From Bdellovibrionales bacterium (GTDB lineage: Bacteria; Bdellovibrionota; UBA1018; CAIMNF01): a stretch of 59,483 bases of DNA. The stretch's first letter is position 1. Each line of letters starts with the position of its first letter. This document shows positions 22,680-24,744 of this stretch, in pieces. Location of the stretch: positions 1 through 59,483 of the forward strand of contig JBEIKL010000001.1 in the NCBI GenBank assembly GCA_040379745.1. The letters are read 5' to 3'. The position numbers and the translations under genes were made by a program. The notes beneath the pieces are model-generated. The model saw only the letters and a list, made by a program, of their open reading frames with translations, was not told where the DNA came from and ran no database searches.

Positions 22680-23309
22680 ATGGTCATGAAAAGATTCTTC
22701 CCGAAGCAGCCCAACTTTTTCAAAATTCTTTCGAAGATGGCGGACCTCTCCTGGAGCGTATCCCAAGAGTTCGAGAAGTTCCTCGATCCGAAAAACTCTG
22801 CAAAAGAGGTCGCTACACAGGTTGCGAACATCGAACACGAAGCGGACGATCACGTACGCGACTCGATCAAACTGCTGGCCGACACCTTCATCACTCCGAT
22901 CGAGCGCAATGACCTTCATGCTCTTTTTGTCGCTACGGATGAGGTGATCGATCTTTATCACGCGGCTTCTCAGCGTTACTACAGCTACAACATGGCCGGT
23001 ATGTCGGCGGGAGCCAATAATCTCGTGAAACTCACCTCGAATTGCGTGCGCGAATTCCAAGAGTTGATCCATCGCCTTGAAGAGATCGATTCCCCGGAAC
23101 ACATCGAGAAAATCATCGCATCCATTCACAAGATTGAAAAAGCCGCTGACCATGAAATGCGTTCTTCGTTGGCTGCTTTGTATGATTCCGGTGCAAGCGT
23201 TGCTCAGATTTTCAAGGAACGGGACATGATTCTCGTTCTCGAGCGCATCACCGATCAGATCGAACGCGTGACCCGTTTGATCGAGTCTGTTGTTCTTGAT
23301 AAAGCCTGA
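22680..23309 (+). CDS. DUF47-family (PhoU-like) phosphate transport regulator
   Basis: ~205-aa all-helical acidic protein immediately upstream of a PiT transporter, which is the usual DUF47-Pit pairing. Confidence 0.7.
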   Translation: MVMKRFFPKQPNFFKILSKMADLSWSVSQEFEKFLDPKNSAKEVATQVANIEHEADDHVRDSIKLLADTFITPIERNDLHALFVATDEVIDLYHAASQRYYSYNMAGMSAGANNLVKLTSNCVREFQELIHRLEEIDSPEHIEKIIASIHKIEKAADHEMRSSLAALYDSGASVAQIFKERDMILVLERITDQIERVTRLIESVVLDKA

Positions 23310-23331
23310 TCCTCGTTAAGGAGACCCCATC

Positions 23332-24318
23332 ATGGATTACTCAACACTGCTGATCATCGCCATCGTGTTTGCATTGGCCTTTGACTTCATCAACGGCTTC
23401 CATGATGCGGCCAACTCGGTAGCCACCATTGTCGCCACCCAGGTCCTGAAGCCCCATTGGGCTGTTCTTTGGGCAGCATTCTTCAATTTCATCGCCTTCA
23501 TGTTTTTTGAGCTCAAGGTGGCCACCACGATCGGAAAGGGCGTGATCGATCCGAAGATCGCCGACACCACGTTGGTGTTGTCGACCCTCATCGGTGCCGT
23601 CACTTGGAACCTGGTCACTTGGTATTGGGGCTTGCCATCCAGTTCATCTCACGCCTTGATCGGTGGCCTCGTTGGTACTGCCATCGCCAAAGCAGGAACG
23701 AGTGCACTCAATTGGGAAGGGCTGACTAAAATCTTTTTCTCGATCGTCGGTTCCCCTTTGTTCGGATTGATTCTCGGATTCCTGTTGATGAAGTTGATTC
23801 GCATGATTGTTCAATACGGAAAACCGCGGTCCATCGATGGCTGGTTCCGAAAACTTCAATTGGTATCGGCCGCTCTCTACAGTCTCGGTCATGGTGGTAA
23901 TGATGCTCAAAAAACCATGGGGATCATCACTGTTTTGTTGATCGCGAACGGCCACCTCGGCGCGAATGATCAGACTCCGTTTTGGGTGGTTCTGACCTGT
24001 CAGTTGGCGATGGGAATCGGTACTTTGTTCGGGGGTTGGAAAATCGTGAAGACCATGGGGATGAAGCTGACGAAGCTGAAACCGATCGGTGGCTTCTGCG
24101 CAGAAACCTCCGGTGCTGCGACCTTGTTCCTGGCGACCTCACTGGGGATTCCGGTTTCCACCACTCACACCATCACCGGATCCATCGTTGGGGTAGGGTC
24201 TGCGGACTCTGCTAAAAAAGTGAAATGGGATATTGCTGGCCGCATCGTCTGGGCCTGGATCTTCACCATTCCTGCTTCGGGGCTGATCGGCGCCGCTTCT
24301 TATCTCCTGTTGAAATAG
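23332..24318 (+). CDS. pit: inorganic phosphate transporter, PiT family
   Basis: Duplicated PiT signatures INGFHDAANSVATIV and GHGGNDAQKTMGII. Polytopic membrane protein. Confidence 0.9.
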   Translation: MDYSTLLIIAIVFALAFDFINGFHDAANSVATIVATQVLKPHWAVLWAAFFNFIAFMFFELKVATTIGKGVIDPKIADTTLVLSTLIGAVTWNLVTWYWGLPSSSSHALIGGLVGTAIAKAGTSALNWEGLTKIFFSIVGSPLFGLILGFLLMKLIRMIVQYGKPRSIDGWFRKLQLVSAALYSLGHGGNDAQKTMGIITVLLIANGHLGANDQTPFWVVLTCQLAMGIGTLFGGWKIVKTMGMKLTKLKPIGGFCAETSGAATLFLATSLGIPVSTTHTITGSIVGVGSADSAKKVKWDIAGRIVWAWIFTIPASGLIGAASYLLLK

Positions 24319-24455
24319 TTCTCGGAATACATCGACGTATCGTTGCGCCCTTTGTGTCTTTTCTTATTAGTGTGAATCATTGAAATCACCAGAAATCACT
24401 CTTCTGAGCCTTTTTTGTATGGTTTGTTGGTCTGTCTGAATTGCGGACATGCCAT

Positions 24456-24540
24456 GGAGGCAAGGAGGCAAGGAGGCAAGGAGGCAAGGAGGCAAGGAGG
24501 CAAGGAGGCAAGGAGGCAAGGAGGCAAGGAGGCAAGGAGG
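24456..24540. repeat. perfect 8-nt tandem repeat, (GGAGGCAA) x 10.6
   Basis: 24461-24540 is exactly ten copies of CAAGGAGG, preceded by GGAGG. The repeat is intergenic, between pit and tRNA-Leu. Confidence 0.97.
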
Positions 24541-24658
24541 GCTCCCGAAGTAACAAGCCATTCTGTAGAGCAATCGTTTAAAGATGAGTATTTTAAGGCA
24601 AGCTGAAATGTAAATCTCAACTTAGGTCTGAAATGAAATCAAAAGGGCGATTTTTAGA

Positions 24659-24744
24659 TGGTGCCGAAGGTCGGACTCGAACCGACACATCCGTGAAGAT
24701 ACTGGATTTTGAATCCAGCGCGTCTACCATTCCACCACTCCGGC
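24659..24744 (-). tRNA. tRNA-Leu (anticodon CAA), class II with a long variable arm and an encoded CCA
   Basis: The reverse complement reads GCCGGAG-TG-...-CTGGA TTCAAAA TCCAG-(long arm)-GTCGG TTCGAGT CCGAC-CTTCGGC-ACCA. The 7-bp acceptor stem includes one G-U pair. U33 and A37 flank the CAA anticodon. Confidence 0.93.

What the first reader, a model, noticed from the sequence alone, without database searches (positions are those of the whole stretch)
24456..24540. Ten perfect copies of an octamer that is a Shine-Dalgarno on one strand and an anti-SD on the other
(GGAGGCAA) x 10.6 has no mismatches. On the plus strand, downstream of pit, each unit contains AAGGAGG, a full-strength ribosome-binding site repeated every 8 nt. 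On the minus strand, about 120 nt downstream of tRNA-Leu, each unit is CCUCCUUG. That mimics the CCUCCUU core of the 16S rRNA 3' end.

Because 8 is not a multiple of 3, any ORF crossing the array encodes the same 8-aa repeat in all frames: EARRQGGK on the plus strand and LPPCLLAS on the minus strand. Gain or loss of a unit would shift the downstream frame.

A perfect array of this length is a slipped-strand hotspot. Possible roles are a phase-variable switch, a ribosome or 16S-tail sponge RNA, or a protein-binding array.
Basis: seen in the sequence. Interest (0 to 1): 0.6.

Follow-up and report, generated by a model that had tools for sequence, protein, structure and literature searches.

The report
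Octamer array tied to RHH regulator
The perfect (GGAGGCAA)x10.6 repeat is real, but its ribosome-binding-site look is probably incidental: it is one of three same-unit arrays in this Bdellovibrio-type genome, and the main copy sits in front of a fast-evolving DNA-binding (ribbon-helix-helix) gene whose relatives all carry such arrays with different units.

Summary
Window 24456-24540 holds 10.6 perfect copies of GGAGGCAA between the convergent pit gene and tRNA-Leu(CAA).

The array is not unique. The same freshwater Bdellovibrionota MAG has (GGAGGCAT)x13 on contig C5 and (GGAGGCWT)x7.8 on C106. The nearest species, G008, has four arrays of a different octamer, GGAGCAAA. The other 114 genomes of the order have none.

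In both genomes one array lies directly upstream of an orphan gene. That gene encodes a ribbon-helix-helix (RHH) domain fused to a degenerate MNT nucleotidyltransferase domain. Eight further relatives were readable in metagenome contigs:
- Five carry long arrays of 8-9-nt units just upstream of the gene, each with its own unit: ACTGCTGTC, ACTGCTATC, AAACTAGC, CTCAGCCAG.
- Three are cut off after 2-3.5 units.

The canonical RHH-MNT/HEPN antitoxin relatives carry two palindromic 8-bp boxes at the same place.

Best reading, inferred and not shown: the arrays are slippage-expanded tandem operators of this RHH protein, like omega heptads, and the window's array is a satellite copy. One contig from another lake holds a 2-box allele, which supports copy-number polymorphism.

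A Shine-Dalgarno or anti-Shine-Dalgarno sponge is not supported. Earlier notes of this scan describe similar octamer and heptamer arrays in other phyla.

The parts
24456..24540 (+). (GGAGGCAA)x10.6 perfect tandem octamer array. It is read here as a satellite copy of the GGAGGCWW array family of this genome.
24544..24555 (+). 12-nt flank CCCGAAGTAACA. It is identical to the 3' arm region of the hairpin that follows the C106 array, at nearly the same offset, which shows that the C1 and C106 arrays are paralogous copies.
   Evidence: 84-nt alignment, 80% identity, running past the array
24450..24455 (+). Upstream junction TGCCAT. Together with the first GGAGG it forms one CATGGAGG unit of the C5 (master) type before the CAA units begin.
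24390..24416 (+). Weak hairpin (CAGAA/TTCTG) followed by a T-run, probably the pit terminator. It was read by eye and not called by the scan.
   Evidence: sequence; one search found no terminator by its criteria
23332..24318 (+). pit (PHO4-family phosphate transporter), the upstream convergent neighbour.
22680..23309 (+). PhoU_div/DUF47 partner of pit.
24659..24744 (-). tRNA-Leu(CAA), the downstream convergent neighbour.

Best explanation
The array is one member of a genome-specific family of tandem octamer arrays, three loci in this MAG with core GGAGGC(A/T)(A/T).

The master copy lies 30 nt upstream of an orphan gene at C5:30409-31116. The gene encodes an N-terminal ribbon-helix-helix DNA-binding domain fused to a degenerate MNT nucleotidyltransferase domain. 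It descends from the RHH-MNT antitoxins of HEPN/MNT modules.

In the canonical relatives, the operator position just before the start codon holds two tandem palindromic 8-bp boxes. In the orphan subfamily the same position holds a long, slippage-prone array of 8-9-bp units, and the unit differs from lineage to lineage.

Most likely mechanism (inferred): dimers of the RHH protein bind one unit each and polymerise cooperatively along the array, as omega does on heptads and MetJ on 8-bp metboxes. The array then acts as an expanded autoregulatory operator.

Copies of the array with a short flank were pasted to other intergenic sites. The window's array is such a satellite. Replication slippage then changed its length, from 2 boxes in one natural strain to 10.6 here.

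The window's array sits between two convergent gene ends, so it probably regulates no promoter. If it is bound, it would act as a decoy that titrates the protein, or as a roadblock between the converging pit and tRNA transcription units.

Shown: the arrays, their shared unit within a genome, the gene-array association, the homology of the protein, and copy-number differences.

Inferred: protein binding and any consequence of it.
For: 1. Same unit at three loci of G000, and nowhere else even as a 2-unit seed.

2. The closest species, G008, has four loci that all use a different unit, GGAGCAAA. One of them is orthologous to the C5 locus: MBL/ComEC-like gene, then array, then RHH gene.

3. The RHH gene and the GGAG-type arrays co-occur in 2 of 116 genomes of the order, and in none of the other 114.

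4. Only 22 proteins among 1.84 billion representatives match. All 10 family members with readable DNA have tandem 8-9-nt units upstream of the ATG, each subgroup with its own unit. Seven of them, counting G000 and G008, have arrays of at least 4.6 units. Three contigs are cut off after 2-3.5 units.

5. In L339 the upstream gene is a different one, but the array stays with the RHH gene.

6. The N-terminal domain is RHH. Pfam HicB hits 11 of 16 members (best E 6e-8), and there are weak hits to Arc, ParG, CopG and ORF56. The AlphaFold model has pLDDT 88.

7. Homology to canonical RHH-MNT proteins is strong (hhalign 99.5%, E 4e-23). Those proteins are followed by HEPN genes. 21 of 24 loci scanned carry at least two half-box motifs within 50 nt of the start. 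One of the three that fail is a true HicB, and the other two show a box pair by eye. The motif is 66-fold denser there than further upstream.

8. Precedent: omega (RHH) binds six separate arrays of 7-10 non-palindromic heptads on pSM19035, one dimer per unit (PMC9499535).

9. The flank shared by C1 and C106 shows copy-paste. A metagenome orthologue of the C106 locus keeps an array and the hairpin at 89% flank identity.
Against: - No binding experiment exists and none could be simulated here.
- G000 and G008 are sister species, so the co-occurrence of gene and arrays counts as one evolutionary event.
- Satellites could be checked in only two genomes.
- The canonical operators are essentially single-copy in G016, G010 and G018, so a multi-site regulon is not ancestral.
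- The expanded units are not palindromic, unlike the canonical boxes.
- The window's array differs from the master unit at position 8 (CAA against CAT).
- Its position between convergent gene ends gives no obvious regulatory target.
- Octamer arrays with GGAGG occur in many phyla without any known link to RHH genes.
Confidence: 0.5

Rival explanations
1. The array is a neutral dispersed microsatellite (VNTR). An array arose once by slippage, was copied with a bit of flank to other intergenic sites by ectopic recombination, and drifts in length and unit. Its position next to the RHH gene reflects only that this spacer tolerates repeats, and no protein reads the array.
For: - Arrays are gained and lost between sister species. 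The pit/tRNA spacer is 13 nt in G005 and holds mscL in G008. The G008 C10 array has no counterpart in G000.
- Copy number is polymorphic.
- The window's array has no plausible target.
- Similar arrays are widespread in unrelated phyla.
Against: This reading does not explain three things. All 10 readable members of a very rare gene family have a tandem repeat just upstream of the gene despite different upstream neighbours. That place is the operator position of the canonical relatives. Units are homogeneous within a genome but different between genomes.
Confidence: 0.3
2. The master array is a contingency (phase-variation) element. Its length sets expression of the RHH gene through promoter-to-start distance or 5'-UTR length, and the satellites, including the window's array, are by-products.
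For: - The master arrays lie within 0-30 nt of the SD or start codon. In G008 the last unit supplies the SD.
- Copy number differs between assemblies that encode the identical protein: 7.4 against at least 12.7 units.
Against: - Known promoter or UTR switches use 1-5-nt units.
- This does not explain why satellites keep the unit of the master.
- The window's array is not upstream of any gene.
Confidence: 0.08
3. The array acts at the RNA level. It would be a multi-SD transcript that soaks up 30S subunits or CsrA (plus strand), or a CCUCC anti-SD mimic (minus strand).
For: - Each unit contains AAGGAGG, or CAAGGA, which resembles the CsrA consensus core (own knowledge).
- The genome encodes CsrA.
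- The plus-strand RNA is predicted to have little stable base pairing (-10 kcal/mol without quadruplexes).
Against: - No promoter or terminator frames the array beyond chance, and Rfam finds no match.
- The array is not conserved in 114 relatives.
- Sister arrays of the family have units without GGA or SD.
- Orientation relative to neighbouring transcription differs at each locus.
Confidence: 0.05
4. The array is a G-quadruplex-forming element. GG-A-GG-CAA repeats would fold into tandem two-tetrad quadruplexes in DNA or RNA and affect replication or transcription, like the G-rich heptamers of Xanthomonas and Nostoc.
For: ViennaRNA with its quadruplex model predicts five consecutive 2-tier quadruplexes, at -25.5 against -10 kcal/mol. 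G-rich intergenic heptamer arrays that form G4 are described in PMC4692102.
Against: There are only two-G runs. The homologous arrays in related lineages (ACTGCTGTC, AAACTAGC, GGAGCAAA) cannot form quadruplexes, so this cannot be the common function of the family.
Confidence: 0.05

Closest known systems
omega (ParB-pSM) repressor and its parS/operator arrays on plasmid pSM19035 (PMC9499535)
   Same: An RHH protein acts on several separate arrays of 7-10 contiguous short non-palindromic repeats. One dimer binds per unit and binding is cooperative. One of the arrays lies in front of the protein's own gene.
   Different: - The omega system is plasmid-borne with a ParA partner and uses 7-bp units in mixed orientation.
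- Here the system is chromosomal, no ParA is nearby, and the units are 8-9 bp and all direct.
- The protein here carries a degenerate MNT domain.
- Binding is not shown here.
MetJ repressor and tandem 8-bp metboxes (own knowledge: Somers and Phillips 1992); ParG with 8-bp-spaced ACTC boxes of TP228 (own knowledge)
   Same: RHH dimers sit on tandem boxes with an 8-bp period. The canonical relatives found here have two palindromic 8-bp boxes at the start of the gene.
   Different: MetJ sites have 2-5 boxes and are stable. The arrays here reach 13 or more units, are hypervariable, and change unit between species.
HEPN/MNT (HepT/MntA) type VII toxin-antitoxin modules (PMC7641770, PMC11586414)
   Same: The protein next to the master array is homologous to MNT antitoxins (hhalign E 4e-23). 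Its canonical relatives in Bdellovibrionota are followed by HEPN genes.
   Different: Typical MNT antitoxins have no DNA-binding domain (PMC7641770), whereas these carry an N-terminal RHH. The G000/G008 subfamily lacks the GS...DxD catalytic motif and has no HEPN partner.
Dispersed intergenic 7-8-nt tandem repeats: cyanobacterial STRR heptamers, GGGAATC of Xanthomonas (PMC4692102), TAACTGA of Beggiatoaceae (PMC4679880)
   Same: These are short tandem units repeated at several intergenic loci of one genome. The unit is specific to the lineage and the function is unknown.
   Different: Those families have tens to hundreds of loci, against three or four here. No cognate protein gene next to a master array has been reported for them.

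Membership tests
Long simple sequence repeat / VNTR | Perfect head-to-tail copies of a short unit | tested here: met
   10.6 copies, 100% identity
Long simple sequence repeat / VNTR | Copy number varies between strains | tested here: met
   One k=31 contig of run X3 joins 24454 to 24527, leaving 2 GGAGG boxes. Loop-to-flank depth ratios differ among runs. This rests on a single contig at depth 3.5, so support is moderate.
RHH tandem operator / centromere arrays (omega, MetJ, ParG type) | Contiguous 7-9-bp units, at least two in a row | tested here: met
RHH tandem operator / centromere arrays (omega, MetJ, ParG type) | A cognate RHH protein is encoded in the genome, with an array of the same unit at its own gene | tested here: met
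   C5 array lies 30 nt upstream of the RHH gene. RHH assignment. The association recurs in every readable homologue.
RHH tandem operator / centromere arrays (omega, MetJ, ParG type) | The protein binds the repeat specifically | not testable with these tools
   Needs EMSA, footprinting or ChIP.
RHH tandem operator / centromere arrays (omega, MetJ, ParG type) | The array overlaps a promoter or acts with a ParA partner | tested here: not met
   The window's array lies between convergent gene ends. No ParA is next to the RHH gene. This holds for the window's copy only.
CsrB/RsmZ-type CsrA sponge sRNA | Own promoter and terminator, GGA motifs presented in hairpin loops, conserved among relatives | tested here: not met
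   - No framing signals.
- No hairpins presenting the GGA motifs.
- Absent from 114 relatives.
- CsrA itself is present.
Phase-variable contingency locus | Repeat inside an ORF, or between promoter elements of a gene | tested here: not met
   The array is intergenic, downstream of both neighbours.
G-quadruplex-forming G-rich SSR (Rehm et al. 2015) | Four or more runs of at least three G | tested here: not met
   Only GG runs are present. A two-tetrad fold is predicted.
HEPN/MNT type VII TA (for the linked protein) | MNT catalytic motif GS...DxD and an adjacent HEPN toxin gene | tested here: not met
   The motif is deleted or substituted in the subfamily. There is no HEPN gene downstream. Homology to the family is met.

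The most novel reading that the evidence does not exclude
A domesticated, catalytically dead RHH-MNT ex-antitoxin has a tandem-repeat operator that expands by slippage and re-codes its unit together with the protein's DNA-reading strand. Copies of the array seeded around the chromosome form a lineage-specific set of binding sites.

If true, this is the first case in which a dispersed family of 7-9-nt intergenic tandem repeats has an identifiable cognate protein. It would also give a recipe for the old puzzle of STRR-like repeats: find the master array next to a small DNA-binding gene.
Probability: 0.3. Interest if true: 0.8.

Novelty: new variant of a known kind. Interest (0 to 1): 0.55.

Why it matters
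Short tandem repeats of 7-9 nt scattered between bacterial genes have been known since 1990 (cyanobacterial STRR, Xanthomonas GGGAATC, Beggiatoa TAACTGA). No function has been assigned to them.

Here a small repeat family can be tied by comparative genomics to one gene. This is a rare RHH-domain descendant of MNT antitoxins that always carries such an array at its operator position, with a unit that changes from lineage to lineage.

The idea that these repeats are protein-binding arrays then becomes directly testable with one protein and a few oligonucleotides. The case also shows an antitoxin that has lost both toxin and catalysis but is retained at a fixed chromosomal locus.

For the window itself, the practical message is that the striking Shine-Dalgarno look of the unit is probably a coincidence of this lineage.

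Tried and rejected
- Rfam scan of the spacer found only the tRNA.
- The promoter/terminator scan found nothing above chance.
- A flank comparison looked for a larger mobile element around the three arrays. Only a 12-nt shared flank (C1 and C106) turned up. The 38-nt REP-like element near C106 is a separate family.
- The first pattern search (GGAGGNNN) suggested the arrays were unique to this genome. That was misleading, because the sister species uses GGAGCAAA. It was found only by reading the orthologous locus and widening the pattern.
They show the motif class is widespread but give no enrichment statistic, since no control pattern could be run.
- Only one metagenome contig, L176, is related to this genome.
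- Logan contigs are k=31, so copy number cannot be read directly. Only the short allele and the loop-depth ratios are informative.
- Pfam on the G000 protein alone gave nothing. The profile of the subfamily was needed.
- PADLOC gave no hit for the orphan protein.
- A search for satellites of the canonical two-box operators in three genomes found essentially none.
- No further genome of the order carries the orphan subfamily, so the satellite prediction could not be tested in a third genome.

Full report
**1. Observation**

The window holds (GGAGGCAA)x10.6 at 24456-24540 with no mismatch (TRF score 170). It lies in a 340-nt spacer between two convergent genes:
- pit (23332-24318, PHO4 family);
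- tRNA-Leu(CAA) (24659-24744, minus strand).

None looks like a gene. The promoter/terminator scan finds nothing above chance and Rfam finds only the tRNA.

Contigs of other public freshwater metagenomes enter the array from both flanks or hold the 38-nt loop unitig expected for a period-8 repeat at k=31. The array therefore exists in nature. The 85-nt length could still be a lower bound set by the assembler.

**2. The array is not alone in the genome**

The window belongs to a 2.5-Mb, 78%-complete MAG. Earlier notes of this scan place it in Bdellovibrionota, and the runs that hold it are freshwater metagenomes. TRF over the whole MAG finds two more octamer arrays with nearly the same unit:
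- C5:31147-31250 reads (GGAGGCAT)x13 on the minus strand.
- C106:4652-4713 reads (GGAGGCAT/CTT)x7.8.

There are no shorter seeds of the motif anywhere else in the genome.

The C1 and C106 arrays are followed at almost the same offset by the identical 12-mer CCCGAAGTAACA. In C106 this is part of an 8-bp-stem hairpin. These two arrays are therefore copies of one another, not independent births. The first unit of the window's array is preceded by CAT, which makes one master-type unit before the CAA units start.

Orientation relative to neighbouring genes differs at each locus:
- C5: sense, between co-directional genes.
- C106: antisense, 93 nt upstream of a gene for a small secreted protein.
- C1: between convergent genes.

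**3. Relatives**

In the two nearest species with the same pit/tRNA-Leu synteny, the spacer has no array. It is 13 nt long in G005 and contains an mscL-like gene in G008.

A pattern search for GGAGGNNN arrays found none in 115 other genomes of the order. Reading the orthologue of the C5 locus in G008 showed why: that genome has an array there with a different unit, GGAGCAAA. A wider pattern then found this unit at several G008 loci:
- the master locus, split over two contig ends, and at least 14.8 units in another assembly;
- C10, 7.5 units, about 60 nt upstream of a near-consensus promoter of an iscS-like gene;
- C18, 4.5 units, 45 nt from the start of a divergent lipoprotein gene;
- C62, 2.4 units in a 36-nt convergent spacer.

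Units are thus uniform within a genome and different between sister genomes. A metagenome contig (L176) is orthologous to the C106 locus at 89% identity. It keeps both an array, (GGAGGCAT)x9 or more, and the hairpin.

**4. The linked gene**

In G000 and G008 the master array lies between a metallo-beta-lactamase (ComEC-like) gene and a small orphan gene. The gene starts 30 nt after the array in G000. In G008 it starts 5 nt after, so the last unit serves as the Shine-Dalgarno.

The two proteins (235 and 156 aa) are only 24-27% identical, far less than their neighbours. A profile of the two finds nothing else in 116 genomes of the order, and only 22 proteins among 1.84 billion cluster representatives.

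I fetched the contigs of eight of these homologues. Together with G000 and G008, all 10 readable members have tandem 8-9-nt units just upstream of the start codon. Seven have arrays of at least 4.6 units. The other three are cut off by the contig end.

| Protein (locus) | Unit and copies |
|---|---|
| P0004 (L339, L340) | (ACTGCTGTC), x7.4 in one assembly and at least x12.7 with a scaffold gap in another |
| P0008 (L344, L345) | (ACTGCTATC), at least x4.6 |
| P0005 (L341) | (AAACTAGC), at least x6.6 |
| P0009 (L346) | (CTCAGCCAG)x8.1, complete |
| P0010 (L347) | (ACTATAGT)x3.5 |
| P0007 (L343) | 2.2 units of TACTATAG in a 26-nt palindrome |
| P0006 (L342) | two imperfect GGCAAG-type units, where the contig begins |

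Many of these contigs begin or end inside the array, which shows that the arrays are long enough to break assemblies. In L339 the upstream gene is a different one (peptidase S13). The array therefore goes with the orphan gene, not with ComEC.

**5. What the protein is**

The N-terminal 45 residues are a ribbon-helix-helix domain:
- Pfam HicB hits 11 of 16 members (best E 6e-8).
- There are weaker hits to Arc, ParG and RHH_4, and PDB profile hits to ORF56/CopG-type RHH proteins, ParD and ParG.
- AlphaFold2 with the 16-sequence alignment gives pLDDT 88: an extended N-terminus, two helices, then an alpha/beta domain.

With the larger profile, about 40 of 401 sampled Bdellovibrionota genomes have related proteins of about 190 aa. 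These are RHH fused to an MNT nucleotidyltransferase domain (Pfam NTP_transf_2). In 19 of 20 loci they are followed by a HEPN gene, so they are HEPN/MNT toxin-antitoxin modules.

Profile-profile comparison puts the orphan subfamily in this family over both domains (99.5%, E 4e-23). The subfamily lacks the invariant GS...R...SDxD motif: nine residues are deleted and the second Asp is replaced. It also has no HEPN partner. It is best described as a catalytically dead ex-antitoxin that kept its DNA-binding domain. Its intact reading frame in at least 16 diverged lineages and its confident fold argue that it is still functional.

**6. The operator position**

In the canonical loci the 50 nt before the start codon contain two adjacent 8-bp palindromic boxes of the TAGTACTA, TGATACTA or TGATATCA type, usually running into the ATG. 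Of the 24 loci scanned, 21 have at least two half-box motifs there. One of the three that fail is a true HicB (L372). The other two, G018 and G016, show a TGATATCA/TNATATCA pair by eye. The half-box motif is 66 times denser there than in the 550 nt further upstream.

This is the classic layout of an RHH autoregulatory operator with an 8-bp period, as in MetJ metboxes (own knowledge). The long arrays of the orphan subfamily occupy the same place.

The closest described analogue of a long array is omega of pSM19035. It is an RHH protein that binds six separate arrays of 7-10 contiguous non-palindromic heptads, one dimer per heptad and cooperatively, including the array at its own promoter (PMC9499535).

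**7. Interpretation**

These facts are best joined by one model. The arrays are tandem binding sites of the RHH protein, they expanded by replication slippage, and their unit co-evolves with the protein. The window's array is a satellite copy.

The model explains four observations:
- the unit is the same at all loci of one genome and different in the sister genome;
- arrays occur only in the two genomes of the order that have the gene;
- orientation relative to transcription does not matter;
- the period is 8-9 bp.

It also makes the Shine-Dalgarno look of the G000 and G008 units incidental, because other members of the family use units without any GGAG.

What the window's copy does is uncertain. 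It lies downstream of both neighbours, so it is unlikely to control a promoter. A decoy or roadblock role, or none, are the options. The 2.4-unit site of G008 sits in a comparable convergent spacer.

**8. Copy-number variation**

One contig of run X3, from another lake study, joins 24454 to 24527. That allele has only two GGAGG boxes. Loop-to-flank depth ratios differ among runs: about 0.9 in X1, 4.7 in X2 and over 10 in X3. These are rough figures, because other organisms may add to the loop depth.

Two other arrays of the family also vary:
- The 15-mer array downstream of the G000 RHH gene has 8.6 copies in the MAG and 4.6 in another assembly that encodes the identical protein.
- The P0004 array differs between two assemblies.

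**9. Rivals**

- A purely neutral dispersed VNTR remains possible (0.3). It fits the gain and loss between species and the lack of a target, but not the fixed association with the operator position of a rare gene family.
- A contingency switch for the RHH gene could hold for the master array, but not for the window's copy.
- RNA sponge ideas (30S, 16S tail, CsrA) lack any transcript signals and any conservation. They are contradicted by the non-SD units of sister arrays. CsrA is encoded, which keeps a small residual probability.
- A two-tetrad G-quadruplex is predicted for the plus strand but cannot be general for the family.

**10. Wider context**

GGAGG-containing octamer arrays of five or more units occur in at least 120 stretches of species-representative genomes of many phyla. 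Arrays of GGAGGCWW occur in at least 120 metagenome stretches.

Several genomes again show one unit at several loci. Many arrays are paired with an inverted copy to form long hairpins, which is not the case here. Earlier notes of this scan described such octamer and heptamer arrays in Chloroflexota, Gemmatimonadota, Verrucomicrobiota and others, and pointed to the literature on heptamer repeats (PMC4692102, PMC4679880). None of them reported a cognate protein gene.

**11. Limits**

- Binding is inferred.
- The two genomes with satellites are sisters.
- The copy-number evidence for the window's array rests on one low-depth contig.
- The control needed to say whether GGAGG octamers are over-represented among all octamer arrays could not be run.

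Noticed in passing
G000 contig C106:4806-4843 and more than 40 other places in the MAG (for example C85:6275-6312, C130, C94, C291, C75): A REP-like element of about 38 nt (core GCATCAAAAAAGCGCCGGACACCTTTT) recurs at gene ends, sometimes as tandem pairs. Weaker copies occur in G008 and G005. It is unrelated to the octamer arrays.
   Followed up: partly
G000 contig C5:30069-30197 (outside the window); L338:1005-1073: A second VNTR, (GTGCACGGAGAGAGT)n, lies in the convergent spacer just downstream of the RHH gene. It has 8.6 copies in the MAG and 4.6 in another assembly that encodes the identical protein.
   Followed up: partly
Loci L350-L377 (about 40 of 401 Bdellovibrionota genomes): HEPN/MNT toxin-antitoxin modules whose MNT antitoxin carries an N-terminal RHH domain. 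Typical MNT antitoxins have no DNA-binding domain. A conserved pair of palindromic 8-bp boxes runs into the ATG, with no room for a Shine-Dalgarno, which suggests leaderless, autorepressed transcripts.
   Followed up: partly
G000 contig C198:1-145: (CCTATTGAGGAACA)x10.4 lies at a contig start. It is the highest-scoring tandem repeat of the MAG and its context was not examined.
   Followed up: no
window 24319-24658 compared with G008:C105 and G005:C16: The pit/tRNA-Leu spacer turns over quickly. It is 13 nt in G005, about 480 nt with an mscL-like gene in G008, and 340 nt with the array and no mscL in this genome.
   Followed up: partly
Metagenome loci L181, L194, L211, L216, L258, L260, L270, L288 and others: In unrelated environmental contigs, (GGAGGCAA)n arrays are often followed within a few bases by the inverted array (CCTTGCC-type units), giving long hairpins with octamer arms. 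The window's array has no inverted partner.
   Followed up: no
window 22680-24318: A PhoU_div (DUF47) gene sits directly upstream of pit. This is the usual pairing for PHO4-type phosphate transporters and is ordinary.
   Followed up: no
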